Shown: positions 1 to 16,115, numbered from the stretch's first letter. The stretch: DNA of 64,000 nt from an uncultured Desulfobacter sp. (GCA_963665095.1 OY762069.1:3904001-3968000), one strand, 5' to 3'. A program made the numbers and translations. Notes: generated by a model from the sequence alone, not told the origin.

Positions 1-887
1 CGTTTTCTTGATAATCTGGGCCGAAATGTATACCCTAGAAAATCAAACTTCATAACAGGATAATCTCCTTTTCGATCTTCATCCTTGCAATAAACTATTT
101 TTGTCTTTTCAGGGTGCAGCTCCAACCCACATTCACCAAACCTTAACTCCAAGTCAGCTTTCAACTGTTTGGCTAATGGTTCAGTTCTGCAGTGGCAAAC
201 AGCATCATCGGCATATCGCTCAAAAGGCACATACGAATAGTTTCGCTGCATCCAATGATCGAAAACATAATGCAAAAATAAATTTGCCAGCAAGGGACTA
301 ACCACTCCTCCTTGCGGAGTTCCTTTTTGCGGATAAACAAGTGATCCGTCCGGCATTGCGATTGGGGCCTTTAGCCACCGTTCAACATACAAAAGTACCC
401 AGCGACAATCTGTGTGTTTTACTACAGCTCTCATCAAAAGTTCATGACTGATATTGTCAAAAAATCCTTTGACATCAAGATCCAACACCCAGTCATACCG
501 CCAGCATCTTTTGCGTGCTTCCCCCACGGCATCCAGGGCTGACTTGTTTGGCCGATAACCATACGAGTCCGGATGAAAATGATGCTCTAATAACGGTTCG
601 AGATACTGTTTTACAACCATCTGGGCGACACGATCTCCCACAGTTGGAATACCAAGGGGCCTCATTCGGCCATCCCCTTTTGGTATCTCTATACGCGCTA
701 CCGGAGGAGGGAAATAACTGCCGGAAGACATCCGGTTCCATATTTTGAAAAGGTTATTGGTAATATCCTTTTCAAAATCAACTATGGACTGATTATCTAT
801 TCCAGCCCCACCACGGTTTGCTTTCACGCATTTGTATGCTTCCCAAACTTGACGCTTTGAGATAATAAACGACTTTACTTTTTTCAA
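1..887 (-). CDS. ltrA: Group II intron reverse transcriptase/maturase, class D (RmInt1-like); runs off the window start
   Basis: TTG start at 887 after GGGAAGGA; translates MKKVKSFIISKRQVWEAYKCVKANRGGAGID...RPLGIPTVGDR...LDVKGFFD...GTPQGGVVSPLLANLFLH...FERYADD; no stop seen before base 1. Confidence 0.92.
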   Translation of the reverse strand, partial: MKKVKSFIISKRQVWEAYKCVKANRGGAGIDNQSIVDFEKDITNNLFKIWNRMSSGSYFPPPVARIEIPKGDGRMRPLGIPTVGDRVAQMVVKQYLEPLLEHHFHPDSYGYRPNKSALDAVGEARKRCWRYDWVLDLDVKGFFDNISHELLMRAVVKHTDCRWVLLYVERWLKAPIAMPDGSLVYPQKGTPQGGVVSPLLANLFLHYVFDHWMQRNYSYVPFERYADDAVCHCRTEPLAKQLKADLELRFGECGLELHPEKTKIVYCKDEDRKGDYPVMKFDFLGYTFRPRLSRK

Positions 888-1113
888 CAGAATCCTTCCC
901 TATACGGGTTGTTCTTATGTTAAAAGTTGAACGACGCAACCCCTTCGCTCCAGTCCCATTGCAGCACCTTCTTCACTACTACGAGTTGCTCCGCCCCTGT
1001 GCTCCGCTTCGGTACTCTGATCCTTGTGGTGCTTCCACTTGGATTTCTCCCTTAGCATCGGAACGACAGGTTCCCATGTTCCATAAGAAAGCCTAAGATA
1101 TGTTCATGCCGCC
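1..1113 (-). mobile_element. Class D group II intron copy 1, 5' part of domain I deleted, fused to DV of IIC intron A
   Basis: RT ORF plus upstream ribozyme-like sequence (minus strand GGCGGCATGA...GGAACATGGGAACC); bases 1-470 are near-identical to 11252-11721; ends abruptly at gccgcc/acccggcatacgg. Confidence 0.8.
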
Positions 1114-1777
1114 ACCCGGCATACGGATCTCGTACCAAGGCGGTTCGGCTGGTATGAATAAAATCAGTTGTAGGTTATCCCACCGATTTTATCGGGTTTT
1201 GGGCAAAGTCTTGCTATGGAAATTTCGGCCACTGCCGCATTATTCCCATAAAATCCTTCTACTTACTCACCACAACCATTTACCCAAGCCATTCGGCCCG
1301 GGTACCGTTCAGGCCTTCATCGGGGTGAGGCCTCCGGGTGTACTTCTCCCATGCCAGAGAGGCCCAGCTCGTTTTTTCCGACTACTATGCCCTCTGCTGA
1401 CTTCTCCCATGCGGTCAGGACCAGTTACCCGGCCCTCAGACAATCCGGCACATGGGAGATCTCCCGGGGTAAACACGTGTCTTTCAGTACCTGAATGCCG
1501 GATTTACGGACATACCCTGTAATGGATAGAGGACTTCACCTTGTTGTGCAGGCTCGTCCCGGTATGTGCGTCTTATATCCGATTTCTGTACGTCATCCCG
1601 TACCTTCGTGGTACCTTGCCTCAGCAAGGCGGCTTCCTCCCGAAGCACCGTCACCGGTACCCCGTTGCACTACCACTACACCCTTCGCCTCCATCCGGCT
1701 GGGTCTAAGACTTGCCAAACGCATTGAAATCGTTTACGTTTGACTCACTTTTAAGAACACGTGCCGTGCCCGGCACA
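1112..1777 (-). mobile_element. ORF-less group IIC(-attC) intron, copy A (DVI not seen in window; first G displaced to 2486)
   Basis: Minus strand begins TGTGCCGGGCACGG; has DV GAACCGCCTTGGTACGAGATCCGTATGCCGGGTGG; colinear with copy B; no RT ORF. Confidence 0.85.
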
Positions 1778-2485
1778 ATAGGGATAGGACTCCCCATTAC
1801 TGAGGAGCCCTCCCACACCACCCGGCGTACGGATCTCGTACCAAGGCGGTTCGGCTGGTATGAATAGAATCGGTTGTAGGTTATCCCACCGATTTTATCG
1901 GGCTTTGGGCAAAGTCATGCTATGGAAATTTCGACCACTGCCGCATTATTTCCATAAAATCCTTCTACTTACTCACCACAACCATTTACCCAAGCCATTC
2001 GGCCCGGGTACCGTTCAGGCCTTCATCGGGGTGAGGCCTCCGGGTGTACTTCTCCCATGACAGGGAGGCCCGGCTCGTTTCCTTCCGACTACTATGCCCT
2101 CTGCTGACTTCTCCCATGCGGTCAGGACCGGTTACCCGGCCCTCAGCCAATCCGGCACATGGGAGATCTCCCGGGGTAAACACATGTCTTTCGGTACGTG
2201 AATGCCGGGTTTACGGACATACCCTGTAATGGATAGAGGACTTTGCCTTGTGTGGCAGGCTCGTCCCGGTATGCGCGCCTTATACCCGATTCCTGTACGT
2301 CATCCCGTACCTTCGTGGTGCCTTGCCTCAGCAAAGCGGCTTCCTCCCGAAGCACCGTCACCGGTACCCCGTTGCACTACCACTACACCCTTCGCCTCCA
2401 TCCGGCTGGGTCTAAGACTTGCCAAATGTATTGGAATTCTATACATTTGACTCACTCTTAAGAACATGTGCCGTGCCCGGCACAC
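1778..2485 (-). mobile_element. ORF-less group IIC intron, copy B, complete (708 nt)
   Basis: 5' GTGTGCCGGGCACGG at 2485; DV GAACCGCC...CGTACGCCGGGTGGTG; DVI ends CCTATCCCTAT at 1778; DIV short and non-coding. Confidence 0.9.
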
Positions 2486-2486
2486 C

Positions 2487-2612
2487 ACCAAACGCTGGAG
2501 CGGGACCGGGCTTACTGCGTGGATTTTTGAAAGTTTGTGGTTCAAGAAAATGTAAACTTTTATCTGAGGATACGGCTTCAAAACGCCCGGCCCCTCAGCT
2601 TCCCCGTTATAA
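2487..2612 (+). other. attC site 1 (R'' interrupted by the IIC introns)
   Basis: AC-caaac-GCTGGAG (L'') ... CCCGGCCC-CTCAGC (L')-ttcccc-GTTATAA (R', 2606-2612); same architecture as attC2. Confidence 0.8.
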
Positions 2613-2630
2613 ATTTGAAGGACAAACGAA

Positions 2631-3362
2631 TTGCATCAAGATAATAAAATTGCATTGCTGATTGATTGTGACAATGTTAGTCACAAATCTATTGAAGGTG
2701 TTATCGATGAACTTTCCAAGTATGGGAAAGTCAATATAAGGCATGCCTATGGAAATTGGAAAAACGATAGTATGAAAGGTTGGGAAGAGAAGTTGCACCC
2801 ACATGCCATCAAACCAATTCAGCAATTTGCATATACTAAGGGTAAAAATGCAACTGATGCTGCTATGATAATTGATGCAATGGATATTTTATATACTCAA
2901 AACCTTGATGCTTTTGCATTAATGACGAGTGATAGCGATTTTACACCGCTGGTTATGCGCATTTTATCTAATGGCATTACAGTTTATGGTTTTGGAGAGA
3001 AAAAAACTCCACAGCCTTTCGTCAAAGCCTGTTCTCAATTTATATACACAGAAAATTTAGAGCAAATAGAAGGGGAAGATGAAAAGCCTGATAATAATGT
3101 AAATGCAAAAAAGACAAGGAACGAACTGAGACAAGATGCAGCATTGGTAAAATTATTAAGAACAGCTGTAGAGCATTTTGCAGATGAGAGTGGATGGTCT
3201 CATTTAGGTCTTGTTGGGCAATATATTAGCAACAAAACCTCATTTTCACCCGTAAATTACGGGTATAAAAAATTAGGCGACTTAATAAGAGTTAGTGATC
3301 TTTTTCATATAGAAATGAGAGATGACAACTCTACTATGTACATAAAAGATATAAGAAAATAA
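2631..3362 (+). CDS. NYN (LabA/DUF88 PIN-like) domain protein with C-terminal OST-HTH/LOTUS domain; gene cassette
   Basis: IALLIDCDN, GKNATD, SDSDFTPL motifs; C-terminal GW..L..VG...F.P.NYGYKKL.DLI; AT-rich; bounded by GTTATAA and TTATAAC. Confidence 0.9.
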   Translation: MHQDNKIALLIDCDNVSHKSIEGVIDELSKYGKVNIRHAYGNWKNDSMKGWEEKLHPHAIKPIQQFAYTKGKNATDAAMIIDAMDILYTQNLDAFALMTSDSDFTPLVMRILSNGITVYGFGEKKTPQPFVKACSQFIYTENLEQIEGEDEKPDNNVNAKKTRNELRQDAALVKLLRTAVEHFADESGWSHLGLVGQYISNKTSFSPVNYGYKKLGDLIRVSDLFHIEMRDDNSTMYIKDIRK

Positions 3363-3364
3363 TT

Positions 3365-3493
3365 TTATAACAAAGCCGCTGAACCCGACCGGGCAACCTG
3401 CGCGGCGTTTTGAGGCTGCCTGGTTAATGAAATTTTAAACTTTTACCGGAGCTATTGTGGTTTAAACGCCCGGCCGGTTAGCTCCCCGTTATG
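3365..3493 (+). other. attC site 2
   Basis: R'' TTATAAC 3365-3371 (exact complement of the cassette-start GTTATAA), L'' GCTGAAC, arms CCGACCGGG/CCCGGCCGG, L' GTTAGC, R' GTTATG 3488-3493. Confidence 0.9.
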
Positions 3494-4197
3494 GTGCGAC
3501 ACGAGGTCGCATTATTGGCTGTTTGGCGGACCAGTCGGTCCTGACCAAACCCGGCTCCTGCCGGTACCCTAGGTGGCATGCGGTTACCGGTGCATCCGGC
3601 AACGGTGTGAAGCCCAACCGACAAAGTACCGAATTCCGCAGCTGCGGAAGGGGTGGAAGCCGTGAGGCGGATACCCTCCTGGAAGCCTCAATCCGGGTAA
3701 GGGCAAGGGTTTGGATGATATGGTCAAATTAATTGAATGTTCCGTAAGTACCGTCAGGGAGAGCAAGCTAAAAAGGCTGGTAAGCTTGGACCAAAAGGTG
3801 AGCGGTCAGGTTGCAGGTTTCCTAACTGCCTGCACGGAGATGTTGTGCCGCCGGTGCTTAAGGGCAGACCTAAGTCATCCATAAATTGGCAATAATGCGG
3901 AACGTGGAAACCCCGTATCTTCGCCGGGAGTATTCGGCAGGTGAAACTGTAAGGCACACTGATGGAGGTGCGGGCGTAAGATGCAGGAAAAAGCGAATGC
4001 CGTCTTGTAATGAGATGGATACGGATTGAGGCGTATATCCCCAACATTACCCGGCCCGAAAGGGAGCTGACGTCCGGCGGGTGTGACTACAGACACACCC
4101 GGGCAGGTATTTCGTAAGCGTTTAAAGGACCCCATCTACAACTCATTAAAATGACATGAGAAGATGAGCCAACTTTTAATTAACGGAGGCCCATCAT

Positions 4198-4530
4198 ATG
4201 TCAGAAACAGAGAACAAAAACCAAAAGCTAATCCAGTTCTGGAAATACCATATTAAACAATGGTCTGAATCGAGTATGTCCCAAAATGCATACTGCAGGC
4301 AAAATGATTTAAGACCCAATCAATTTACATACTGGAAAATGAAATTCAAAAGCCAGGCACTTGCCCCAGAATTCGTTCAGGTCCCTTCAACGCAGATCAG
4401 CCAGGCACTAAGTCTTTCTGAACAAAAAGGCTTAACGTTGAATACAGATAACGGATTTCAGATCGAAATACCGGATGGCTTTTCCCAAACAACCCTGGCC
4501 CAGGTGCTTCAAGTATTGAGGCGGTGCTGA
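4198..4530 (+). CDS. tnpA: IS66 accessory protein TnpA
   Basis: W..HI.QW..S.MSQ.AYCR...L....F.YW pattern; first ORF of the IS66. Confidence 0.85.
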   Translation: MSETENKNQKLIQFWKYHIKQWSESSMSQNAYCRQNDLRPNQFTYWKMKFKSQALAPEFVQVPSTQISQALSLSEQKGLTLNTDNGFQIEIPDGFSQTTLAQVLQVLRRC

Positions 4531-4883
4531 TGTTTTCTCCCACCCAGAATTTAAAAATTCATATCGCACTTGGAAACACTGATATGCGCAAGTCCATTGA
4601 TGGGCTATCCATACTTGTGAGCGAAAAGTTAAATTTGGATCCATTTTCAGGACACATGTTTGTATTCTGTAATCGGAAACGGAATATATTGAAAATCCTG
4701 TATTGGGATCGCAATGGATTCTGTCTTTGGCATAAGCGCTTGGAAAGGGATTATTTTCAATGGCCCAAGTCAAAAGAGGAAATTTTGACCATCGGAGCAA
4801 AAGAGCTTTCCTGGCTGATGGACGGACTTTCTATTCGTCAGGAAAAAGCACATAAATCATTAAAATATTCGGCTGTTTTTTGA
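4524..4883 (+). CDS. tnpB: IS66 accessory protein TnpB
   Basis: TDMRKSIDGL, FVFCNRKR..LKILYWD.NGF.LW.KRLE motifs. Confidence 0.95.
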   Translation: MLMFSPTQNLKIHIALGNTDMRKSIDGLSILVSEKLNLDPFSGHMFVFCNRKRNILKILYWDRNGFCLWHKRLERDYFQWPKSKEEILTIGAKELSWLMDGLSIRQEKAHKSLKYSAVF

Positions 4884-4928
4884 TCATAAAAACTGGTGAA
4901 AACCGCGTGGTTATGGTATATACAACGC

Positions 4929-6521
4929 ATGAATAAAGAGGCTTTTGCAGACATAAATGACGTTGAGAAATTAAAAGAAATGATGGCTTGTTTTGTCAAT
5001 GATTTTTCAGATAGAGAGCACAATTATAAAGCCGAAATCAAAATTCTCAACGAACAGATTAAAAGCCTTCGGGACCAGCTTTTTGGTAAAAAGACAGAAA
5101 AAATCCATAAGAATGACGGTCAACTATCCCTTTTTGATACTTTTGAGCCGGATACGCCCATATTGGACGAACCCGAAGAAATCAGCGTGCCTGCCCATAA
5201 TCGAAAGAAGCCAGGGCGTAGACCTTTGCCTGAAAACCTTCCACGGGTTGAAGTGATCCACGATCTGACCGAGGAAGAAAAAATATGTGCCTGTGGCTGC
5301 ATGAAATCCCGTTGCGGCAAAGAAGAATCTGAACAGCTTGAAATTATTCCGGCACAAGTGAGAGTAATCAGAAACATTCGTTATAAATACGCTTGCAAAA
5401 ACTGCGAAGGTGTTGACGATGATGGGCCAACAGTGTCCATTGCCAGAATGCCGGAACAAATGATCCCCAAGAGCATCGCAACCCCAGGGCTTTTGGCCCA
5501 TATCCTGACAGCCAAATTTGCAGATGCTTTACCCTTCTACCGGCAGGAAAAACAGTTTAACCGAATTGGAGTAGACATCCACAGGTCCAATATGTGCAAT
5601 TGGGCTATGAAAGTGGCCCAGGCCTGTGAGATCCTGCTGGAATATATGAAGGATGAAATCCTTAAAGGCCCAGTGATAAATATTGACGAAACAACAGTCC
5701 AGGTTCTCAAAGAACCGAAACGGTCAAAATGCTATATGTGGGTGTTCAAAGGAGGGACACCGGATAATCCCATTATTCTGTTCCAGTATCACCCAACTCG
5801 ATCCGGGGATGTTGCCCGGAATTTTTTGAACGGTTATCAAGGTGTTGTTCAGACGGATGGCTATGCTGGCTATGACTTTCTTGATCATATTGTGGAAATC
5901 ATTCATGTTGCGTGCTGGGCACACGCACGTCGAAAGTTCATGGCTGTGGTCAAAGCTGCCGGAAATAAAACTGGCAACCCAACGGGAACCGCCGGCAAAG
6001 CCCTGAAGTACATCAGCAAATTATACAAAATAGAAAGAGAGGCCAAAGAACTTGGTTTGTCTGCTGATGGACTTTACTGGAAAAGGCAGGAGCTATCCTT
6101 GCCTATCCTTGATGAATTTAAAAAATGGTTGGATGCTCAAGTTGAAAAGGTACCGCCCAAAAGTCTTCTTGGTAAAGCCATTAACTACACCCTTAATCAA
6201 TGGCATAGATTGGTTCTGTATACGGCAAGTGGTCTGGTAATGCCGGATAATAATGTAGTCGAAAATGCCATAAGACCCTTTGTGGTGGGCAGAAAAAATT
6301 GGTTGTTTTCATGTACACCTGCGGGCGCCGATGCCAGTGCCTGCATTTACAGCCTGATCGAAACAGCCAAGGCCAATGGGCTTGAACCTTACTGGTACCT
6401 CAAATTTCTCTTTGAAAATTTACCGGAAGCCATGACGGAAGATGAATTTAAAGCCTTGATGCCACAAAACGTGGATAAACATTTGCTGGAATCCAACTAT
6501 ACAACACCCCGTCAGGCTTAA
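4929..6521 (+). CDS. tnpC: IS66 DDE transposase TnpC (alternative start 4896)
   Basis: LPFYRQ, IDET, QTDGYAGY, CWAHARRKF, DNNVVENAIRP..VGRKNWLF, SLIETAKANG. Confidence 0.97.
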   Translation: MNKEAFADINDVEKLKEMMACFVNDFSDREHNYKAEIKILNEQIKSLRDQLFGKKTEKIHKNDGQLSLFDTFEPDTPILDEPEEISVPAHNRKKPGRRPLPENLPRVEVIHDLTEEEKICACGCMKSRCGKEESEQLEIIPAQVRVIRNIRYKYACKNCEGVDDDGPTVSIARMPEQMIPKSIATPGLLAHILTAKFADALPFYRQEKQFNRIGVDIHRSNMCNWAMKVAQACEILLEYMKDEILKGPVINIDETTVQVLKEPKRSKCYMWVFKGGTPDNPIILFQYHPTRSGDVARNFLNGYQGVVQTDGYAGYDFLDHIVEIIHVACWAHARRKFMAVVKAAGNKTGNPTGTAGKALKYISKLYKIEREAKELGLSADGLYWKRQELSLPILDEFKKWLDAQVEKVPPKSLLGKAINYTLNQWHRLVLYTASGLVMPDNNVVENAIRPFVVGRKNWLFSCTPAGADASACIYSLIETAKANGLEPYWYLKFLFENLPEAMTEDEFKALMPQNVDKHLLESNYTTPRQA

Positions 6522-6781
6522 AAAGGTGCGGTTGATACACCGCTTACGGTATTTCTTTGCAAGAGAGTCTGGAGAATCTTTGAGGATGGTGTAGATTCCC
6601 GAAATAACCTGAACAAAAACCCGCCAAATTTTTCATATTAAATTGACAAAGTTCCATTTTTCTCAAATTATCCTGTACAGGTTCTGATCAAAGCATTCTG
6701 ACAAAAATGAAAAGGGCGAAAAGCTTTGCAGAGCCTCGCCCTTAAGACCGGGATTTATAAAATCCCAAAACAACCATAAAA

Positions 6782-7228
6782 ATGATAATAAAGGTCAAAG
6801 CTGATATCAAGCAAATTTTCAAGCAGGGCAAAAATTTTACATGGCCAAAACCGTCACGATGTCCACATTGCAACGACTCCAGGCTGTGGGGACACGGCTT
6901 TGTACTCTCCTTTTTTGATGGATTTGATCAAGGGGTGTATTTGAAGCGATATCGCTGCCCCTATTGCAAAACCGTATTCAAATTGAAGCCATATGGTTTT
7001 TTCAAGAGGTTCCAGGCCAGTATCTGGCAAATCCTTACCAGCATTATGAGTCGTCTATACACTGACCGGTATCTGCCGGAACTCTCCTGGAACCGACAGC
7101 ATTTTTGGTTTACTGCATTGAAACGAAATATAGCGGCCTACCTGTCCAACAGTTGGGACAAAGGTGTGGTTGCTGGTTTTATCAAGCTAATCGGTATGGG
7201 TAAAATCCCGGTTACCAGTTCAATTTAA
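6782..7228 (+). CDS. Transposon-associated Zn-ribbon protein (DUF6431-like)
   Basis: CPHC...LWGHG...RYRCPYC motifs; first ORF in the element. Confidence 0.75.
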   Translation: MIIKVKADIKQIFKQGKNFTWPKPSRCPHCNDSRLWGHGFVLSFFDGFDQGVYLKRYRCPYCKTVFKLKPYGFFKRFQASIWQILTSIMSRLYTDRYLPELSWNRQHFWFTALKRNIAAYLSNSWDKGVVAGFIKLIGMGKIPVTSSI

Positions 7229-7331
7229 CCATGGGGCTGGATCAGGTTTAAACCACCCTACCGAAGGCTGTGATTTACCGAAGGATCATACTGTCATACA
7301 AGCCCTTAGAACCAAATTTTAAGGAGGAAGT

Positions 7332-8588
7332 ATGACAGAAAATCAGAAAAATGAGGTTGCCGTGTTCAGGTTTGGGGTCATTTGTGAATTTGTGACCGGA
7401 ACAAATTTTGATTACGGTGAAAAAGAACGAATTTTACAGCAGAAGTGCGCCCGCAAATGGTCCATCCCGTATTCTGGAAGGACCAGGCTTTCCAGAAGTA
7501 CGATTCTGGGATGGGTCCGGCAGTATAACGGTCGAATAGAGTCTCTTTACCCCAAAGACCGTTCAGACCAGGGAAAATCAAGGGTATTCGATGACGAGAC
7601 TGCATCTCAACTAATCAAACTCCGGTTAGACCAGCCTGATGCGACAGTCGATACATTGATCTGTTCACTTCAAAAAACTACATGCCAGACATACAGTCCA
7701 TCCAGTGTATACCGTTTTTTACGCGGCCGGGGGCTAATGAACACGGCCCGGCCAGAGGATAGAAGAAAGTTTGAAGCCCCGCACCCCAATGATATGTGGC
7801 AAAGCGACGTCATGCACGGCCCTACAGTCCTGGTTCAGGATAAGCAAAGAAAAACGTACCTGATTGCCATTATGGACGATCATTCCAGGCTGGTTACGGC
7901 TGCAGGTTTTTATTTATCTGAGAATCTGAAGACCTATCTTATGGTGCTGGAGCAGGCTTTTTTGAGCCGTGGGCTTCCCCGCAAGCTGTATGTAGATAAC
8001 GGTCCTGCGTTCAGATCCCATCATTTAAAATATGTAGCAGCGTCTCTGTCCATCGCTTTAATCCATGCAAGGCCATATAAGCCCCAGGGGAAAGGTAAAA
8101 TCGAGCGCTGGTTCAGAACGGTTCGGCTTCAGTTTCTGCAAAGATTTACAGGTAAGACCCTGGATGATCTGAATGGGGCATTTGAGAAGTGGCTTCATAA
8201 TGAGTACCATCAGCGTAAACACAGCTCCACAGGCGAATCACCGTTTAAAAGATTTACCTCGGCCATGGAGTGCATCCGTACCGCCCCACCGGATCTGAAA
8301 GACCACTTCCGCAAAACCGCCCGGCGCAAGGTGGCAAAGGACCGAACCATAACCCTTGACGGCAACATGTTTGAGGCCCCGGTTGCGCTGATCGGCAGAC
8401 ATGTGGATGTAAAGTACCATGAGGACACCCCTTTGCAGGCTGAAGTTATCTATAAAGCAAAGTCTTATGGCTTGTTAACCCCGGTGGACCTTGCTGTGAA
8501 CTGCCGGGTCAAGCGGCACCGCTGGAACGAAAATGATATCCGGATTATGCCTGAACCCTCAAATTACAAGGGAGGGCAACTGTTATGA
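7332..8588 (+). CDS. DDE integrase/transposase (rve core plus Mu-transposase C-terminal domain)
   Basis: WQSD, DDHSR, LYVDNG, GKGKIERWFRT, Y..R.HSST. Confidence 0.93.
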   Translation: MTENQKNEVAVFRFGVICEFVTGTNFDYGEKERILQQKCARKWSIPYSGRTRLSRSTILGWVRQYNGRIESLYPKDRSDQGKSRVFDDETASQLIKLRLDQPDATVDTLICSLQKTTCQTYSPSSVYRFLRGRGLMNTARPEDRRKFEAPHPNDMWQSDVMHGPTVLVQDKQRKTYLIAIMDDHSRLVTAAGFYLSENLKTYLMVLEQAFLSRGLPRKLYVDNGPAFRSHHLKYVAASLSIALIHARPYKPQGKGKIERWFRTVRLQFLQRFTGKTLDDLNGAFEKWLHNEYHQRKHSSTGESPFKRFTSAMECIRTAPPDLKDHFRKTARRKVAKDRTITLDGNMFEAPVALIGRHVDVKYHEDTPLQAEVIYKAKSYGLLTPVDLAVNCRVKRHRWNENDIRIMPEPSNYKGGQLL

Positions 8589-9394
8589 GTGAAATGTATC
8601 GCACCTTTTTTGGCTTATCCAGGGAGGCCTTCCCGGCGCAGATAGAAATTAATGATATCCTGGTTACCCCGGAGGTCTCGGGCGTTAAAAATCGGATTGA
8701 TTATTCCTTAAGACTTGGCTGCAGTGCGGTTATCACAGGGGATGTGGGCAGCGGAAAGTCCACCGCCTTAAGGTATGCCGCCTCATCCCTACACCCTTCG
8801 GAATACAAAGTCTTTTATGTTACGGCCTCAAGCGGTTCCATCATGGAACTTTACCGGCAGATTGTTGAAGAACTGGGCATAGAGCGGACATCGACGTCCC
8901 GCGCTGTTATGATCTCCATTATTAAAAATGAAATACGTGAATTCGTCCTGGGAAAAAAGATCAAAACCGTTTTGATTATAGATGAGGCATCTCTGCTTCG
9001 CATGGAAGTCTTTGCCGAACTTCACACCCTGGTTCAATTTGAAAAAGACGCCATGCCCTGGCTGCCTGTGATCCTTGCAGGTCAGCCGACATTGATAGAT
9101 AAGCTTCAGTACCGGACGTCAATCCCGTTTGCATCCAGGATTGTGGCTAAAAGCCATCTGGATGGTCTGGATGTGGCTGGAATGAAAACTTACCTGATCC
9201 ATCATTTAAAACTATGCGGTGTTGACACCAACTTTTTTTCTGACCAGGCGGTGACTGCGATTCATCAAGGCTCCGGCGGCCTTTTACGAAAGGCGAATAA
9301 TCTTGCCAGAGGCTCATTGATTGCTGCTGCGGCAGAAAAATCAATGACGGTATCTGCAGAGCATGTCCGCATTGCTTCATCGGAGATTTTTTAA
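8585..9394 (+). CDS. ExeA/TnsC-like AAA+ ATPase of the transposon
   Basis: Walker A GDVGSGKST, Walker B LIIDEA, ILAGQP; ATGA overlap with the transposase. Confidence 0.9.
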   Translation: MSEMYRTFFGLSREAFPAQIEINDILVTPEVSGVKNRIDYSLRLGCSAVITGDVGSGKSTALRYAASSLHPSEYKVFYVTASSGSIMELYRQIVEELGIERTSTSRAVMISIIKNEIREFVLGKKIKTVLIIDEASLLRMEVFAELHTLVQFEKDAMPWLPVILAGQPTLIDKLQYRTSIPFASRIVAKSHLDGLDVAGMKTYLIHHLKLCGVDTNFFSDQAVTAIHQGSGGLLRKANNLARGSLIAAAAEKSMTVSAEHVRIASSEIF

Positions 9395-10043
9395 GAAAAA
9401 ACAGCCATAGAGCAGAATATTACGATTTCGGTGAAACGGAGCCGGGCTCTGCTGAGGAGCAACCTGGTAAGGGATAGCCGGAAGCAGGCAGCATTGAATA
9501 ATGCGCCAGGGGAAGTGGGGATTACCTGCTTCCCCTTTCTGCTTTATTCAAGCTGTTCTGCCTATGCCTTAAAAACCTACTGAGAAGGAGCGCAGCGACT
9601 TCTGTAGCTGTCTTAAATAATATGGAAAAGATTTAATCTGTTCAAAATAATTAGAAAATTTAAGTCAGGATAAAATGCGACTCAACAATGGGAAAGCAAA
9701 TGACGGCAATAGCTGGTGCGCCATCAGCAGCTTTACGCTGTTAAAAGACTGTAGATGCGTATCGCAAAGGTTGTTAAAGTAGCACACGGCATATGCGCCA
9801 GAGGTTCTTTCAAAAGGATGCATTTTCTTTTGACTCGGAAAAAGAACAGTGCTTTCCGAGAGAATGCTCAAGGACATATGCTATGAAATAACTGTAAATT
9901 TCATTATTGCTAAAACAACCGGGCGGCCCGCAAGGCTTAGTCTTAGAAATGCTTGAGCCGTATGATGGGAAACTGTCACGTACGGTTCTGAGGGGGCCTG
10001 GGGTAGATAACTACCCCAGGCTACCCGATTTTCAAAAAAATCG

Positions 10044-10080
10044 TTGCACGGATCCAAAAGTAATACTACAATGGTATTAC
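10044..10080 (+). promoter_or_regulatory. Sigma70 promoter and palindromic operator of the AbrB/VapC cassette
   Basis: TTGCAC(10044)-17 nt-TACAAT(10067); inverted repeat GTAATAC-N7-GTATTAC straddles the -10 box. Confidence 0.75.
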
Positions 10081-10100
10081 ATTATCAAAGGAGATTTATT

Positions 10101-10325
10101 ATGCGTGTAACCACAAAAGGCCAAGTCACTATCCCCAAGAATGTAAGGGAAATATTAGGTATTGCTCCAGAGACAGACGTTGATTTTCAAGAAGATAACG
10201 GAAGATTTTATCTGGTCAAAGTATCAAAAAACAAACCGACCTCTAAATTTTCGAAGTTAAGGGGGATTGCTACAGCTAAAATGTCTACAGACGAAATCAT
10301 GAATATGACAAGAAAAATAAAATGA
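10101..10325 (+). CDS. AbrB/MazE/SpoVT-family antitoxin
   Basis: MRVTTKGQVTIPK.VRE.LGI; AAGGAG RBS; overlaps the PIN toxin. Confidence 0.92.
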   Translation: MRVTTKGQVTIPKNVREILGIAPETDVDFQEDNGRFYLVKVSKNKPTSKFSKLRGIATAKMSTDEIMNMTRKIK

Positions 10326-10726
10326 ACGGAATTTTCATTGATTCGTGTGTGTTGCTTGATCTGTTTACGAATGATTCTAAATGGGGAAACTGGTCTGAAG
10401 ACGTATTAAGTCAGTGTAGCCAGACGAATACATTATTCATTAATTCAATTGTGTATACCGAAATATCAATTGGTTTCAACCGTATTGAAGAAGTCGAGGA
10501 AGCTGTTGAACAAGTGGGTGTAAAAGTCCTGGAAATTCCACGCGAAGCTTTGTTTTTGGCTGGAAAGACATTCCTTGAGTATCGAAGAAATAAGGGCACT
10601 AAAAGTTCAACCCTTCCGGATTTCTTCATTGGTGCTCACGCTACAGTATCTTCATTTGACTTAGTCACAAGGGACATTGCAAAATATAGAACGTATTTCC
10701 CAAACATAAAACTTATTTGCCCATGA
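10322..10726 (+). CDS. vapC: PIN-domain toxin VapC
   Basis: IFIDSCVLLD, VYTE, LPDFFIGAHA, LVTRD. Confidence 0.92.
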   Translation: MNGIFIDSCVLLDLFTNDSKWGNWSEDVLSQCSQTNTLFINSIVYTEISIGFNRIEEVEEAVEQVGVKVLEIPREALFLAGKTFLEYRRNKGTKSSTLPDFFIGAHATVSSFDLVTRDIAKYRTYFPNIKLICP

Positions 10727-10814
10727 TTTGCTTCAAGACGTGGTCGCAAACAAATTTTGAACTTTATACCAAGCGAATAGGGATAGGACTCCCCATCACT
10801 GAGGAGCCCTCCCA

Positions 10815-11733
10815 GGTGAGTAGCCCAAAGGAACTTCCCCTTCAGGCTCTCTCAGAACCGGTCGTGAATCTCTCGACTCATCCGGCTCCTATCGTTCAGC
10901 CGTTTTTTTTTCAGGACACGCCAATGTACAAAAAGGTTCGGCTGTCGTTCAGCAATCTGTGTCAACCATCTTGTGGCCTTTTGTTGACGTCCCCTGAGTT
11001 TCTTATATTTACAGGTTGCCCAACGTACTAACCGCCAATTTATATGATGGAGAATCCCAGACATCTCAGAAGGATTGTACCGCCCGTAATAATTAATCCA
11101 GCCTTGAATTATTGGATTACATTCTATAGCCAGATCCTCAAGCGTGTCCCCTGGCCGTAATTGCCAGTTCCAACTGCGTACTTTCTGTCTGATTGCCTTT
11201 GCAGCCTTGTTGCTTATCGCTGGTGTGAAGTTTTCAAAAAATTTTCCTCTGCGATTTCTTGATAATCTGGGCCGAAATGTATACCCTAGAAAATCAAACT
11301 TCATAACAGGATAATCTCCTTTTCGATCTTCATCCTTGCAATAAACTATTTTTGTCTTTTCAGGGTGCAGCTCCAACCCACATTCACCAAACCTTAACTC
11401 CAAGTCAGCTTTCAACTGTTTGGCTAATGGTTCAGTTCTGCAGTGGCAAACAGCATCATCGGCATATCGCTCAAAAGGCACATACGAATAGTTTCGCTGC
11501 ATCCAATGATCGAAAACATAATGCAAAAATAAATTTGCCAGCAAGGGACTAACCACTCCTCCTTGCGGAGTTCCTTTTTGCGGATAAACAAGTGATCCGT
11601 CCGGCATTGCGATTGGGGCCTTTAGCCACCGTTCAACATACAAAAGTACCCAGCGACAATCTGTGTGTTTTACTACAGCTCTCATCAAAAGTTCATGATT
11701 GATATTGTCAAAAAATCCTTTCTCATGGCACAC
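10815..11733 (-). mobile_element. Class D group II intron copy 2, both termini present, large internal deletion
   Basis: 5' GTGTGCCATGAGA joined directly to RT KGFFDN codons; DV GAGCCGGATGAGTCGAGAGATTCACGACCGGTTC; 3' end CTACTCACC; removal restores GGGTGGTG/TGGGAGGG exactly as in copy B. Confidence 0.9.
10852..11720 (-). pseudogene. ltrA: N-terminally truncated class D intron RT/maturase
   Basis: Begins at KGFFDN; retains PQGG, YADD and maturase NPIIQGWINYY; lacks RT0-2. Confidence 0.9.
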
Positions 11734-11786
11734 CACCACCCGGCATACGGATCACGTACCAAGGCGGTTCGGCTGATTTCGAAAAA

Positions 11787-12858
11787 TCAGTTCCCGGGCA
11801 GATACAATCCTTTCTTAACAAAATACATTTCAGGCATGGCAATGGCCACCCACTTGATTTTGCTCATGTGCCAATACTTTTTGCGTGCGTTGCCGCACAG
11901 CATGGCGTCCTGATGAGAAATACCAAGTTTTTCCAGGTTACGGACCCTGGTCCCAGGGTTTTTCCATTGTTTCCAAACAAGACTTCTCAGCCGTCGCAGT
12001 ATCCAGACCTTGAGTTCTTTCAGAAAATAGCGGGTTTCCGTGAGCCGGAAATATCCCCACCACCCTCGGAAATACTGGTTCAAGTCCTGAATCACTTGCC
12101 ACAGACTTTTACCCCGTTTACGGCAGGTTAATTCCCGGACCTTATCCTTGAACCGTTTCATACTCTTGGCATGAATCCGGATCTTGGACTGCCCACACAT
12201 TTGGAAATATGTGAATCCTAAGAATTTACCTATCCACGGTCTGCTTACAGCACTCTTATCCTGGTTTACCTTGAGCTTGAGTTTCACAGTCAGAAACCGG
12301 GTGATACTCTGCATAACCCGCTGGGCTGCTCTCAGGTATGGCCTTCAACCATATACCCCTTCCCCTGTATCACTGCATCGTGTGCGGATCTGCCGGGCCT
12401 GAATCCATAACTGAATTCAGAAAAAGAGGGGTCCCAGACCTGTTCAAGGACCTGGCTCAATTTATCATGACCATCGACACCTGGGATATGGCCTGCTGGA
12501 TAAACCGGTCCAGCACTGTTGGGATTCCAAGTAAACGGACACCGCCATCCGGTTTAGGGATTTCCTTCCTTTTAACCGGCAGCGGTTTGTACCTGCATTC
12601 CAGCAGGTCTTGTTTGATTTCAGGCCAGTGCTTTGCAAGGTAGCTGCCAAGCTGGCTGGTTTTCATGCCATCCACTCCTGGGGCACCCTTGTTTGCACAG
12701 ACATGCTTCCATGCCAGGATAATGTTGTTACGTTCAAGAATCATCTCCATTAAACGGGCATTGTTTCCCAGACGTTCGGCAATCTGTGACGCTGGAAACA
12801 GTTCCAACTGCTGTGGCGATCTGTTCACAAGTACACATCTCCTATTTGTCGTTATCAT
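11787..12858 (-). pseudogene. ltrA: Class C intron RT/maturase pseudogene
   Basis: N-term NKGAPGVDG, R.LGIPTVLDR; then FSEFSYGFRPGRSAHDA; the PQG/YADD region is absent; C-term FLGFT, LNQYFRGWWGYF. Confidence 0.9.
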
Positions 12859-13027
12859 TTACCCGGACCATTCGGCCCGGGCACCGTTCAGGCCTTCACC
12901 GGGGTGAGTCCTCCCTGGTTTGCAGGGCTCGTTTCCTCCGACTACTATGCCCTCTGCTGACTTCTCCCATGCGGCCAGGACCAGTTACCCGGCCCTCAGC
13001 TCCCCATTCGATTTTAAAAACAACCAT

Positions 13028-13051
13028 ACTTGTACAAAATAATGGACAAGT
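13028..13051 (+). promoter_or_regulatory. Probable YefM-YoeB operator
   Basis: ACTTGTACA-N6-TGGACAAGT; TGTACA/TGGACA cores 12 bp apart, as in the E. coli yefM operator. Confidence 0.65.
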
Positions 13052-13104
13052 TTAAAATCAAGTATTATACTTGTGCTATAAAGAGAACAAGTTTGGAGAA
13101 TGTT

Positions 13105-13359
13105 ATGAGAATTATAAATTTTAGTGAAGCACGAAACAATTTAAAAACTGTTTTGAATCAAGTGGCGGACGATGCTGATTATACAATCATCACACGTCGT
13201 GATTCAGAGGACGCTGTTGTCATGTCACTGGAGACTTTCAATAGTTTCATGGAGACTTTTTACCTTCTCAGGTCACCTGCCAACGCGGCACATTTAACAA
13301 AATCTATTCAACAATTTAAAAATGGGAAAGTTCAGGAAAGAGATCTAATAAATGAATAG
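13105..13359 (+). CDS. yefM: YefM/Phd antitoxin
   Basis: INFSEARNNLK.VL, ITRR...AVVMSL, ET.YLLRSPANA.HL. Confidence 0.95.
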   Translation: MRIINFSEARNNLKTVLNQVADDADYTIITRRDSEDAVVMSLETFNSFMETFYLLRSPANAAHLTKSIQQFKNGKVQERDLINE

Positions 13360-13612
13360 AAAACTAACCTGGACCGGGGAAGCATGGAAAGACTATCTCT
13401 ACTGGCAAACACAAGACAAAAAGAAACTGAAAAGAATCAACAAACTCATTAATGACACAATGAGGCAACCATTTGAAGGCATAGGGAAACCTGAGCCATT
13501 GAGAGAAAATCTATCTGGGTTTTGGTCCCGAAGGATTGATGATACAAATCGTTTGGTTTACGCTGCAGATGATGATTTTCTTACAATCATTTCATGTAGA
13601 TATCATTATTAA
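13352..13612 (+). CDS. yoeB: Txe/YoeB toxin
   Basis: AWKDYLYWQ, PFEGIGKPEPL, WSRRID..NRLVY, CRYHY. Confidence 0.97.
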   Translation: MNRKLTWTGEAWKDYLYWQTQDKKKLKRINKLINDTMRQPFEGIGKPEPLRENLSGFWSRRIDDTNRLVYAADDDFLTIISCRYHY

Positions 13613-13625
13613 AACATGGAATCGA

Positions 13626-13656
13626 ATCGTGATAGGACTCCCCCATTACTGAGGAG
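13626..13656 (-). mobile_element. 31-nt relic (DVI only) of a fourth IIC-attC intron
   Basis: ATCGTGATAGGACTCCCCCATTACTGAGGAG matches the 3' end of copies B/C; sits after ATCGA, the expected R'' half for a cassette starting (G)TTCGAT. Confidence 0.8.
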
Positions 13657-13680
13657 ATAATAATGAGCGTCTACAAATAA

Positions 13681-13780
13681 AGTGAACAAAACGCTGCTCG
13701 TACCCGGATAAATCCGAATCGCCCTGTCATTGCAACAATATGCACTTGATTTAGGTCCGCCCGGATAGTAAAGGTTGGAA
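13681..13780 (+). other. Degenerate terminal attC-like site
   Basis: AGTGAAC-aaaac-GCTGCTC ... CCCG-GATAGT-aaag-GTTGGAA; spacing like attC1/2 but L pairing imperfect. Confidence 0.4.
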
Positions 13781-13819
13781 ACGCCGCATATACCAGATGC
13801 AGACAGACAAGAGGAGACC

Positions 13820-14752
13820 ATGACCGGGCTGACCACTTACAAAAAACTGTTCAATAACATTACAAGCGTGATCAAAGGCCAGGACGACACCATCACGCTG
13901 ATGCTGTCAGGATTTGCTGTAGGCGGCCATATTCTGCTGGAAGATGCCCCGGGCAACGGGAAAACCACGCTTGCCAAGGCCTTGGCGTTTTCTGCAGATG
14001 CGGATTTCAAACGCATCCAGTTCACCCCGGACCTTCTACCTTCGGATGTCTGCGGTGTTTCCATCTTTGATCCGTCCAAACAGGAATTCAGACTTCACAA
14101 GGGGCCGGTGTTCACCAATATTCTTCTGGCAGATGAAATCAACCGGGCCTCCCCCAGAACCCAGTCCGCTCTGCTTGAGGCCATGGCGGAATCCCAGGTC
14201 AGCATTGACGGCAACCGTCTGGCGCTGGATGATTTCTTTTTTGTTATTGCCACCCAGAACCCGGTGGAATCCAGGGGCACCTATCCCTTGCCCGAGGCCC
14301 AGATGGACCGGTTTGCCTTGAAGCTCTCCATGGGATATGTGGGGCCGAAAGACGAGGTGGACATCCTCACAAATCAGGAAAAATCAGAGCCGGTTGCCAA
14401 CCTTTCTCCCTGTATATCAAAATCAGATATCATGACCATGAAACAGTGTGTGGATGACGTCTTTATCAGTGAGGAACTCAAATTTTACATTGTCAGCCTG
14501 GTGGGGCAAACACGGACCCATAAGGGCATTACTTTAGGCGCCGGGCACAGGGCATCCATCACCCTGATGAAAACCGCCAAGGCCTGCGCGCTTTTTTCCG
14601 GCAGCGATTTTGTCACGCCCGAACATATCCAAAAGCTGGCCGTGCCGGTGATGGCCCACCGCCTGGTCCTGGATCCGGAATTCTGCTTTTCCGGCAACTC
14701 TTCTGCCGGCGTCATTCATGATATTGTCAGGGCCACCAAAGCCCCGGGTTAA
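13820..14752 (+). CDS. moxR: MoxR-family AAA+ ATPase
   Basis: HILLEDAPGNGKT, RIQFTPDLLPSD, LADEINRA.P.TQSALLE, LPEAQMDRF; GAGGAG RBS before ATG 13820. Confidence 0.95.
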   Translation: MTGLTTYKKLFNNITSVIKGQDDTITLMLSGFAVGGHILLEDAPGNGKTTLAKALAFSADADFKRIQFTPDLLPSDVCGVSIFDPSKQEFRLHKGPVFTNILLADEINRASPRTQSALLEAMAESQVSIDGNRLALDDFFFVIATQNPVESRGTYPLPEAQMDRFALKLSMGYVGPKDEVDILTNQEKSEPVANLSPCISKSDIMTMKQCVDDVFISEELKFYIVSLVGQTRTHKGITLGAGHRASITLMKTAKACALFSGSDFVTPEHIQKLAVPVMAHRLVLDPEFCFSGNSSAGVIHDIVRATKAPG

Positions 14753-14765
14753 GGAAAATTGATCC

Positions 14766-16115
14766 ATGGCAAAGGCGTCAACAAGACTTCTCTACCGCAC
14801 CTATGTCCGTTTTGCCAGGTACGGCTTCTGGAAACAAAACAAGTTCACCGCCACCGGAAACATCTTAATATACGCCGTAATCCTGACCGCCTGCCTTGGC
14901 CTGGACACCTTCAGAAGCATGGTATACCAGTTATTTTCCCTGCTTGTATCCCTGTTTGCCGCATCTGCTCTCCTCTCCTTAAGGCAGGAAAAAGGGCTTT
15001 GTGCTAAACGGATCCTGCCGGAATACGGCAGCGCAGGCATTCCCATTGGCTACACCATCCTTATTGAAAACAGGACAAACCGCCTAAAGCAGGGGTTTGA
15101 AATCCGCGAGCGTTTGGGCAATACAACCCCTTCATTAAAAGATTTTTCCACTGCCAGGGAGCCGTTTGAGCATTTACGCAATGCCTGGGACAGGAAACTC
15201 AAGGTGCAGCGATGGAACTGGCTTGTCCGCAAAAGTGCAAATGCCCGTGTAGCTCGCATTCCTGTTCCGCCGGTCATGCAGGAAAGCAAAATCGAAGTCA
15301 TCGCAGAGCTGGTCCCCTTGAACCGGGGCTACATTTATTTAAAGGGGTTCACCTTTCTTAAAAAAGAGCCCCTGGGTCTCATGCGCGCCGTTTATCACAC
15401 GACCAGAGAAGAAAGGCTTCTGATACTGCCCAGACGGTATAAGGTGCCGGACCTTGTCCTGCCCGGGTCCAGAAAACACCATCGCGGCGGGGTTGCCCTG
15501 ACCTCCAAGGTGGGTAATGCCGATGAGTTCATCTCTTTAAGGGAGTACAGGCCAGGGGATCCCATGCGCCGTATCCACTGGAAAAGTCTTGCGAAAACAG
15601 GAAAACTCATTATCCGGGAAAACCAGGACGAACACTTTGTCAGACATGCCCTGATTCTGGATACCCATGTGCCCCGGGGTGAGGCATCCGACAAATTTGA
15701 AGCGGCCGTAAGCCTTGCAGCCTCCTATGTGTCAAAAATAAATACGAAAGAGTCTTTGCTGGATCTTTTTTTTGCCGGCAGCCGAATTTTTCATTACGCC
15801 TCAGGCAGGGGGCTTTCCGGCAGCAGAAAATTTCTGGAAATCCTGGCATTAATTCAGCCGGCAACCGAGAAGACATTTCAACCGGTGTCCCAGGCTGTAC
15901 TCAAGTATCAGTCGCTTCTAAGCGGCACTATTTTAATTTTCAGCAGCCTGGATCAGGACCGGCTGGAACTGATAAACCGCTTAAAAGCGGGTGGTACTGC
16001 AGTCACTGCGTTTTTGATTACCGATGCAGGCAGTGCAGCACCCTCTGGACGGGTTCATCTTCTCGATTATAAAAATATGCAAACCAGCCTGAACAGATTG
16101 AGACAACCGTCATGA
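14766..16115 (+). CDS. DUF58 domain membrane protein
   Basis: EFISLREYRPGDPMRRIHWKSLAKTGKL; follows moxR. Confidence 0.92.
   Translation: MAKASTRLLYRTYVRFARYGFWKQNKFTATGNILIYAVILTACLGLDTFRSMVYQLFSLLVSLFAASALLSLRQEKGLCAKRILPEYGSAGIPIGYTILIENRTNRLKQGFEIRERLGNTTPSLKDFSTAREPFEHLRNAWDRKLKVQRWNWLVRKSANARVARIPVPPVMQESKIEVIAELVPLNRGYIYLKGFTFLKKEPLGLMRAVYHTTREERLLILPRRYKVPDLVLPGSRKHHRGGVALTSKVGNADEFISLREYRPGDPMRRIHWKSLAKTGKLIIRENQDEHFVRHALILDTHVPRGEASDKFEAAVSLAASYVSKINTKESLLDLFFAGSRIFHYASGRGLSGSRKFLEILALIQPATEKTFQPVSQAVLKYQSLLSGTILIFSSLDQDRLELINRLKAGGTAVTAFLITDAGSAAPSGRVHLLDYKNMQTSLNRLRQPS

What the first reader, a model, noticed from the sequence alone, without database searches (positions are those of the whole stretch)
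1..13780. Integron cassette array hosting a layered community of three group II intron classes
Seen: + strand cassettes bounded by complementary core sites (GTTATAA/TTATAAC; (A)TTCGAT/ATCGA), with intron sequence at every internal cassette junction. There are four IIC copies on the bottom strand at R'', one IIB copy on the top strand at R', and two class D copies inside the IIC introns. Established: IIC-attC introns target TTGT/T on the attC bottom strand. Inference: this array is a niche with a targeting hierarchy (attC, then IIC, then IIC variant and class D; attC, then IIB, then IS elements). The integrase, if any, lies left of the window.
Basis: partly seen in the sequence, partly recalled or inferred. 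Interest (0 to 1): 0.85.

Follow-up and report, generated by a model that had tools for sequence, protein, structure and literature searches.

The report
Introns parasitising introns in integron sites
The recombination sites of a gene-cassette array are crowded with several kinds of self-splicing mobile introns, each reading its own spot by RNA-DNA pairing, and two of them appear to be aimed not at the host DNA but at introns that were already sitting there.

Summary
Real, and richer than reported. The window holds the 3' half of an integrase-less cassette array: an attI-like site lies 11.6 kb to the left, and the only intact intI is 3 Mb away. Both attC sites were confirmed.

Layers:
(1) IIC-attC introns at R'' on the bottom strand (known).
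(2) A IIB1/CL1 intron at R' GTT+3 on the top strand, from a cross-phylum clade whose EBS1 tracks its target (69 of 78 pairs); in print once.
(3) A class D-type intron at the domain V/VI junction of the IIC introns. All 16 closest relatives sit at that junction in other introns, and congeneric copies carry an EBS1 retuned to the IIC junction.
(4) An ORF-less IIC variant whose EBS1 is shifted one base (CACA, not ACAA), fitting an already occupied attC. This explains the tandem with an extra and a missing G, seen directly once.

The IS elements are opportunists. All window copies are broken or ORF-less. This scan noted (2) and V/VI-junction homing before on other DNA; I found neither (3) nor (4) in print.

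The parts
1..1112 (-). Class D-type intron, copy 1; continues 436 nt left of the window. First ~310 nt (domain I with EBS1/EBS2) deleted; RT ORF from 887 open (422 aa)
   Evidence: RT 70.8% identical to Sinorhizobium/Rhizobium plasmid RTs
1112..1777 (-). Resident ORF-less IIC-attC intron (a-type, EBS1 ACAA at 1547-1544). Lacks its first G; cut at the domain V/VI junction by the class D copy; its 38-nt tail lies left of the window
1778..2485 (-). ORF-less IIC variant (b-type, 708 nt) with EBS1 CACA at 2254-2251, inserted one base inside the resident copy
2486..2486 (-). Extra G between attC and the b-type intron; read as the first base of the resident intron
   Evidence: base seen; its origin is inferred
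2487..2613 (+). attC split at R'' by the IIC pair; R' GTTATAA at 2606-2612
2631..3362 (+). Cassette gene: NYN plus OST-HTH/LOTUS domain protein
3364..3493 (+). Intact attC; its R' GTTATG is the 5' exon of the top-strand intron
3494..10029 (+). IIB1/CL1-type intron, RT mostly deleted, about 1.0 kb without the IS elements; EBS2 AGGGAG at 3756-3761, EBS1 CCTAAC at 3821-3826; domains V-VI at 9953-10029
   Evidence: the full-length relative at genome 928454 has 6ME0 as best solved relative
4114..6547 (+). IS66-family element (tnpA, tnpB, tnpC), 8-bp target duplication
6590..9687 (+). IS481-like DDE transposase (just under the family cut-off) plus AAA ATPase element, 4-bp duplication; 14 copies in the genome
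10030..10776 (+). AbrB-like antitoxin / VapC-like PIN cassette; native head GTTCGC|TT in 5 congeners, R'' half AAGCGA
10777..13000 (-). IIC-attC intron with RT deletions, 5'-truncated and fused to an attC L'/R' remnant (12991-13013); split at the domain V/VI junction
10815..11733 (-). Class D-type intron, copy 2: exact 5' and 3' junctions, internal deletion from about nt 13 to mid-RT
13006..13625 (+). YefM/YoeB toxin-antitoxin cassette with cores ATTCGATT / AATCGA
13626..13656 (-). 31-nt 3' remnant of a IIC intron at R''
13682..13721 (+). Left arm of the last attC (R'', spacer, L'' to 13697) and a 24-nt 5' remnant (13698-13721) of a fourth, top-strand intron lineage that inserts in the L'' box
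   Evidence: same register in Desulfosarcina sp. BuS5 plasmid NZ_CP087953.1

Best explanation
An integrase-less cassette array whose attC sites have been colonised by several retrohoming group II intron lineages that divide up the site by base pairing. IIC-attC introns reverse-splice into TTGT|T at R'' on the bottom strand. A IIB1/CL1 clade reads the R' core GTTNNN with EBS1 on the top strand, and this subfamily also reads the CTCCCC spacer with EBS2. A fourth lineage reads L''. A second tier is aimed at resident introns: a class D-type clade homes to the domain V/VI junction of other group II introns and is retuned here to the IIC junction, and an ORF-less IIC variant with EBS1 shifted by one base inserts after the first G of a resident IIC. 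Later deletions, recombination between intron copies and untargeted IS insertions left the broken copies seen now. Shown: positions, boundaries, clades, guide-target complementarity. Inferred: homing as the cause, order of events, RT supplied in trans, recombination.
For: attC hits; 14 of 25 long attC hits in the genome carry an intron (crossed with 17, 30, 32).

IIC: EBS1 ACAA with a TTGT exon in 8 of 8 readable ordinary copies; EBS1 CACA with an extra G in 2 of 2 b-type copies. With relatives: extra G in 4 of 5 CACA copies against 1 of 43 others. The resident lacks exactly that G. The second b copy is b-type up to domain V and then carries the a-type class D junction, as a collapsed tandem would.

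CL1: clade of 11 rows, SH-aLRT 100, several phyla. 9 of 10 with a readable 5' end follow GTT by 2-3 nt. EBS1-IBS1 69 of 78 pairs in 13 introns, shuffle mean 44.7. Empty sites in 5 congeners fix the register.

Class D: clade 100/100 of 18 rows. 16 of 16 closest metagenome relatives lie at a domain V/VI junction by at least one flank. EBS1 pairs 5-6 of 6 in 13 of 13. Five congeneric copies sit in IIC, with EBS1 CGCCAC pairing GTGGTG 6 of 6 in the 4 readable ones. Identical RTs L183 and L184 sit in different hosts.
Against: No splicing or mobility data. No class D copy in this genome keeps EBS1; its guide is inferred from a 98.5% identical congeneric copy.

The b-in-a tandem is seen once, and no listed contig piece from 4 other runs spans that junction. 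In G490 two neighbouring copies show the reverse pattern (extra G with ACAA; no extra G with CACA). In the window the CACA guide pairs only 3 of 4 with its exon GGTG.

Two own CL1 copies lie 7 nt from GTT, not 6, and were left out of the 13. One clade member (L042) has no GTT. attC status of several CL1 relatives was judged by eye or is cut by a contig end. EBS2 pairing outside the short subfamily is weak (2-4 of 6).

Related sequences inflate all the counts. 11 of 25 long attC hits are free of introns.
Confidence: 0.75

Rival explanations
1. Intron graveyard by survivorship. Introns and IS land loosely, survive only in dispensable array DNA, and the repeated nested arrangements are copies of one or two old events spread by homologous recombination.
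For: All window copies are broken or ORF-less. The two class D copies are 99.4% identical. The CL1 copy has flanks from two different sites, so recombination does reshape the array. IS copies lie mostly elsewhere. The review PMC4424553 (passages) describes insertion balanced by deletion in nested arrays.
Against: Registers are base-exact across unrelated attC sequences, host introns and phyla, and EBS1 changes with the target. Survivorship would not produce either.
Confidence: 0.12
2. The upper tiers are real homing, but the b-type IIC is only a drifted copy. The extra and missing G come from a sloppy second insertion or a local rearrangement, and the CACA loop is incidental or a later compensation.
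For: One direct tandem only. Reverse pattern in G490. Ordinary same-register tandems occur in a relative (L319) and are in print for a IIB1 intron (PMC12584367, passages).
Against: CACA and the extra G go together in 4 of 5 copies over 4 genomes against 1 of 43. The change is exactly a one-base shift of the guide.
Confidence: 0.25
3. The top-strand intron finds attC mainly by the DNA hairpin, as IIC introns do, with base pairing secondary (suggested by Sonbol and Siam for UHB.I2).
For: 5' exons differ in the three bases after GTT. EBS2 pairing is weak in most clade members.
Against: EBS1 follows those variable bases and the 2 versus 3 nt register. Both routes may act together.
Confidence: 0.15
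4. Mis-assembly of repeats created the tandem and duplicated pieces.
For: Many 94-99% repeats within 14 kb and just left of it. The tandem junction is not spanned.
Against: Single-contig genome. The copies differ at about 40 diagnostic sites. Contigs of two runs match 2459-3521 with no difference, reaching 27-28 nt into both introns; that is short of the 31 needed to count as bridging, and either run may be the source sample. The same nestings occur in other genomes.
Confidence: 0.04

Closest known systems
Group IIC-attC introns (S.ma.I2, Ge.s.I1 type). PMC3001079, passages; PMC7923331, parts 1-4 of 7
   Same: Class C RT (best solved relative GsI-IIC, E 3e-143); bottom strand, opposite to the cassettes; TTGT|T at R''; found in CALINs.
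   Different: High occupancy, ORF-less derivatives, and a variant whose EBS1 fits the occupied junction one base in; not found in searches.
UHB.I2, IIB1/CL1 intron after an attC (Sonbol and Siam 2021, PMC7923331, parts 1-4 of 7 read; supplements not opened)
   Same: CL1 RT without an endonuclease match, cassette orientation, directly at an attC. One sub-lineage here has the same unusual UUGCG...GU ends.
   Different: That paper has one copy, finds no exon conservation and suggests a structural role. Here a cross-phylum clade shows EBS1 pairing with R'. UHB.I2 itself was not in my tree.
Class E fragments H.ha.F1/F2 in a CALIN, and the top-strand IIC intron of Enterobacter cloacae (both as described in PMC7923331; the E. 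cloacae paper not read)
   Same: Non-standard introns in cassette orientation at attC.
   Different: The fourth lineage here inserts inside the L'' box; its class was not tested.
YADD-homing twintron makers M.a.I5, UA.I3, P.l.I2, B.th.I3 (PMC2504315, passages; PMC4424553, passages)
   Same: A lineage specialised on a conserved spot of other retroelements. 15 of 35 readable outgroup relatives here sit at a YADD/YVDD codon run, and a mostly-YADD group branches next to the V/VI clade.
   Different: The target here is the ribozyme's domain V/VI junction, not the RT gene, across at least four host types.
Thermosynechococcus TeI3-in-TeI4 (PMC2882425, passages), Trichodesmium T.e.I8-in-I7 (PMC4649490, passages), Euglena psbF twintron (as summarised in PMC8393795, passage)
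   Same: Intron inside intron; psbF has the inner intron in domain V; ORF-less copies moved in trans.
   Different: The bacterial cases lie at the ORF start or in domain I; psbF is one organellar event, not a mobile clade.
Tandem integration of EcKTE56.groEL (PMC12584367, passages)
   Same: A second copy enters an occupied site.
   Different: Same register, through an EBS3 wobble. Here the register moves one base and EBS1 moves with it.

Membership tests
Integron array / CALIN | attC sites with R''/L''/L'/R' boxes bounding cassettes in one orientation | tested here: met
   (own model; IntegronFinder not available)
Complete integron | intI next to attI at the head of the array | tested here: not met
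   attI-like site at genome 3892400-39 (37 of 40 identical to the one beside the intact intI), but TIGR02249 passes its cut-off only at 910169-911113
Group IIC-attC | Class C RT and IIC ribozyme | tested here: met
   Full-length copy: best solved relatives are IIC RTs; Rfam D1-D4 hits; window copies 87-95% identical to it over aligned parts
Group IIC-attC | Bottom-strand insertion at TTGT|T of R'' | tested here: met
   9 of 12 5' ends have TTGT, 2 have an extra G, 1 is the invaded copy
Group IIC-attC | RT inside the monophyletic IIC-attC subclade | not tested
   No named IIC-attC RT was placed in a tree
IIB1 / CL1 | CL1-type RT | tested here: met
   Full-length relative: 6ME0 E 3e-163 against 1e-36 to 1e-40 for IIC and LtrA, RVT_N domain, groEL-stop introns among the relatives. 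The window copy keeps only RT scraps; 6ME0 being CL1 is recalled
IIB1 / CL1 | EBS1 and EBS2 pairing with the 5' exon | tested here: met
   Window copy EBS1 5 of 6, EBS2 5 of 6; EBS3 not located
Bacterial class D | RT groups with RmInt1-type proteins | tested here: inconclusive
   Best plasmid hits are Sinorhizobium/Rhizobium at about 70%, annotated only as ltrA; the class label is recalled and no named reference is in the trees
YADD-homing twintron introns | Insertion at the RT active-site codons | tested here: not met
   0 of 16 clade relatives; all lie at the domain V/VI junction. It works like them but has another target
Active mobile intron / functional twintron | Splicing and retrohoming | not testable with these tools
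   Only contigs were laid; RNA runs held 0.06-0.07 of the words

The most novel reading that the evidence does not exclude
attC arrays support a food chain of retroelements. At least four intron lineages split the attC by strand and box. A class D clade, perhaps derived from YADD-homing ancestors, homes to the conserved domain V/VI junction of any group II intron and spares itself, because its own junction has A at +1 where all 13 readable targets have T. An ORF-less IIC variant with a one-base guide shift can invade only attC sites already occupied by its own kin.
Probability: 0.5. Interest if true: 0.85.

Novelty: new variant of a known kind. Interest (0 to 1): 0.72.

Why it matters
The reviews I read list one intron lineage that specialises on attC (IIC) and twintron makers that aim at RT genes. 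This locus puts several more address labels in one place, each readable from sequence and testable by guide swaps. An intron that homes between domains V and VI separates its host's catalytic domain from the branch point and 3' splice site, so it could limit intron spread. A guide shifted to the occupied site would be a natural case of superinfection by a defective retroelement. Recombination between intron copies has also joined an attC to a foreign cassette here (native head GTTCGC, window GTTATG), which bears on the old proposal that attC introns help build or reshuffle cassettes without IntI.

Tried and rejected
1. First attC script was too strict and missed every long site; replaced by profile and covariance models. 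The genome-wide model search scored 150 of 3240 candidates and covers only the long attC family, so 25 is a lower bound.
2. I first read the IIC sites at genome 646334 and 707688 as terminators. They have paired L boxes and are short attC sites (by eye; fold z -2.13 and -3.24).
3. First EBS1 assignment for the CL1 clade used the wrong hairpin and then a fixed GTT register (variable positions 20 of 36, p 0.09). Corrected. The outgroup EBS control is therefore uninformative.
4. Structure-only targeting by the top-strand intron was my first idea; dropped.
5. A replication-strand bias (skew extremes near 4.68 and 1.07 Mb): IIC copies fall on both template strands, no pattern.
6. Promoter/terminator scan of 1-4200 was at chance level.
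7. Phylum and order searches for class D relatives gave only 57-72% matches, in other targets in the loci I looked at; the close clade came from metagenomes (best 80 of 501).
8. The origin of 13650-13700 was not found elsewhere in the genome.
9. RNA runs held too little of the stretch to test splicing.
10. Trees left out duplicates, rows with short matches and loci without a readable 5' end.
11. Literature searches found no bacterial V/VI-junction clade and no guide-shifted IIC. Most subscription papers are not in the library, among them Leon and Roy 2009, Quiroga 2008/2009, Dai and Zimmerly 2003 and Michel 2007 (none read); supplements of PMC7923331 and PMC8919778 were not opened and could list such cases.
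Full report
Setting. The window is G000:C1:3904001-3968000 of a single-contig 6.9-Mb genome. The array begins about 11.6 kb left of the window at an attI-like site, 37 of 40 identical to the site beside the genome's only intact intI at 910-911 kb. No IntI lies near it. The tyrosine recombinase at 3894.3-3895.1 kb is below the IntI cut-off and is paired with an IS91-family transposase. So this is an integrase-less array that IntI could at most serve in trans (inference). A model built from 10 long attC sites outside this array finds 2482-2614 and 3365-3496 in the window and three more sites in the left part, and 25 in the genome. Crossing those with intron ends, 14 of 25 carry an intron. A different intron family with five copies lies at sites that do not look like attC by eye, so introns in this genome do not all end up at attC.

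Tier 1, IIC at R''. The full-length RT elsewhere in the genome is class C. Of 12 IIC 5' ends, 9 follow TTGT at an attC R'' on the bottom strand, as described for IIC-attC introns (PMC7923331, parts 1-4 read; PMC3001079, passages). Two follow an extra G, and one lacks its first G and lies directly behind the 3' end of another copy, at window 1777/1778. Four of the nine sites are short or interrupted attC sites judged by eye.

Tier 2a, the IIC variant. The four-base loop at intron position about 232 is ACAA in all 9 readable ordinary copies and CACA in the two extra-G copies. That this loop is EBS1 rests on its match to TTGT and on recalled IIC anatomy. CACA pairs with TGTG, which is the attC's TGT plus G1 of a resident intron, and the next base is T, as the IIC site requires. 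This accounts for both the extra G at 2486 and the missing G at 1777. The second CACA copy, 1.3 kb left of the window, is b-type up to domain V and then has the a-type class D junction, as expected if a tandem collapsed by recombination. In family members (65 loci chosen from the matches), 38 5' ends had a readable loop. CACA occurred 3 times, twice with the extra G; one ACAA copy had the extra G. Both exceptions are neighbours in G490. Pooled with this genome: 4 of 5 against 1 of 43 (the copies are related, so the p value overstates). Only the window shows the tandem itself, its guide pairs 3 of 4 there, and no contig piece listed spans the junction.

Tier 2b, the class D-type intron. Both window copies sit between domain V and domain VI of a IIC intron (GTGGTG|TGGGAG). 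Copy 2 has both junctions exact; copy 1 lost its first ~310 nt. The RT is about 70% identical to rhizobial plasmid RTs; the class name is recalled. The 16 closest metagenome relatives (87-91%, of 80 kept from 501) all lie at the same junction of another group II intron by at least one flank, in at least four host types. EBS1 pairs 5-6 of 6 with the end of host domain V in 13 of 13; a best EBS2 match of 5-6 of 6 was searched over offsets and is inflated. They form a 100/100 clade with the window copy, next to a group that mostly homes to YADD codons (99/96 split, midpoint root). Among 35 more distant relatives with a readable 5' end, 15 sit at YADD/YVDD, 19 elsewhere, and one (L251, outside the clade) at a IIC V/VI junction with EBS1 CACCAC. 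No copy in this genome keeps EBS1. In congeners, 5 of 25 IIC junctions seen hold the same element; the 4 readable ones have EBS1 CGCCAC, pairing 6 of 6 with GTGGTG, and one is 98.5% identical to the window copy. All 13 readable 3' exons start with T, while the clade's own junction has A in 9 of 9 clean reads; this may prevent self-insertion (inference, EBS3 not located). Twintron makers in print aim at YADD (PMC2504315), the ORF start (PMC2882425) or domain I (PMC4649490); the Euglena psbF inner intron lies in domain V (PMC8393795); all seen as passages only. Earlier notes of this scan report V/VI-junction homing in other genomes (e1-6656361, e1-5627068); I did not test whether those are this clade.

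Tier 1b, the top-strand intron. The window copy is a deleted IIB1/CL1 derivative. All 6 5' ends of this kind in the genome follow an R' core. The full-length relative falls in an 11-row clade (SH-aLRT 100) spanning several phyla, among 89 rows whose other members go to groEL stops, gene bodies, IS or tRNA-like sites (targets read by eye). Nine of 10 clade members with a 5' end follow GTT by 2 or 3 nt; a script confirmed the attC L box for 3 of them and the rest were judged by eye. EBS1 pairs with the last six exon bases at 69 of 78 positions in 13 introns, against a shuffle mean of 44.7; two own copies with 7-nt spacing were left out, and 4 congeneric copies pair 5-6 of 6. Sonbol and Siam describe one such intron (UHB.I2); this scan has noted the lineage many times (48 notes), once in this genome (e1-4224790). 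Five congeners carry the downstream VapC cassette with the head GTTCGC|TT, matching its R'', whereas the window has GTTATG. The two halves of the window copy therefore come from different sites, most simply by recombination between intron copies (inference).

Fourth lineage. Five 5' ends in the genome, one the 24-nt remnant at 13698-13721, follow the R''-spacer-L'' arm on the top strand. A loop in two longer copies pairs 6-7 of 7 with that arm (read by eye), and a Desulfosarcina sp. BuS5 plasmid copy has the same register. Its class was not tested.

IS elements. IS66 and the IS481-like element have clean target duplications inside the CL1 copy, but most copies of the latter lie elsewhere. They are passengers.

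Verdict. The targeting hierarchy is supported for the introns, with guide sequences as the mechanism, and not for the IS tier or the integrase position. Each part extends a known kind (IIC-attC, UHB.I2, twintron makers). The V/VI-junction clade and the guide-shifted IIC were not found in searches, which miss most subscription papers and the unopened supplements. The guide-shifted IIC rests on the thinnest data.

Noticed in passing
G000:C1:905000-966000 (L004-L006): Complete integron (intact intI, attI) whose array holds IIC, CL1 and fourth-lineage introns, IS91-like elements and many toxin-antitoxin cassettes; one attC carries both a IIC at R'' and a CL1 at R'.
   Followed up: partly
L028, L031, L033, L034 (G206): A separate CL1 lineage (49% RT identity) inserted inside the R' core, at GT|T, at four different attC sites of one genome.
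   Followed up: partly
G000:C1:115675-117803 (L032): Another CL1-type intron with UUGCG start inside the apical loop of a short attC; a fifth register.
   Followed up: partly
L001:8870-11281; G000 920745, 925960, 3315923, 3325666: IS91-family elements with a tyrosine recombinase gene lie directly in front of GAAC, at or near an attC R'' in most copies; at 923155 a IIC then entered the same site.
   Followed up: partly
L193 about 2900; L145 about 2790: Class D-type introns whose own domain VI start is interrupted by yet another intron, about 5-6 nt past the V/VI junction.
   Followed up: no
L292:876-1520; L307: 645-nt ORF-less derivatives of the V/VI-homing intron inside ORF-less IIC introns in two congeners.
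   Followed up: partly
L319 (G559); L154/L157; L152/L156: Same-register head-to-tail tandems of IIC and class D introns in relatives.
   Followed up: no
G000:C1:2928822-2928842: attC left arm with five extra bases that look like a footprint left by loss of the fourth-lineage intron.
   Followed up: partly
L001:12345-13718: dGTPase cassette (NF002205 above cut-off; anti-phage dGTPase models below cut-off) in the left part of this array.
   Followed up: no
G000:C1:3348672-3354683: Second, broken intI (about 50% identical to the intact one) split by IS elements, with its own array.
   Followed up: no
G000:C1:337334, 4195749, 4246713, 6016334, 6051084: A further intron family with five copies at similar short non-attC sites.
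   Followed up: partly
window 13775-18169: Host genes right of the array look like a MoxR-type ATPase, a DUF58-like protein and a transglutaminase-like protein (labels recalled from the translations, not searched).
   Followed up: no
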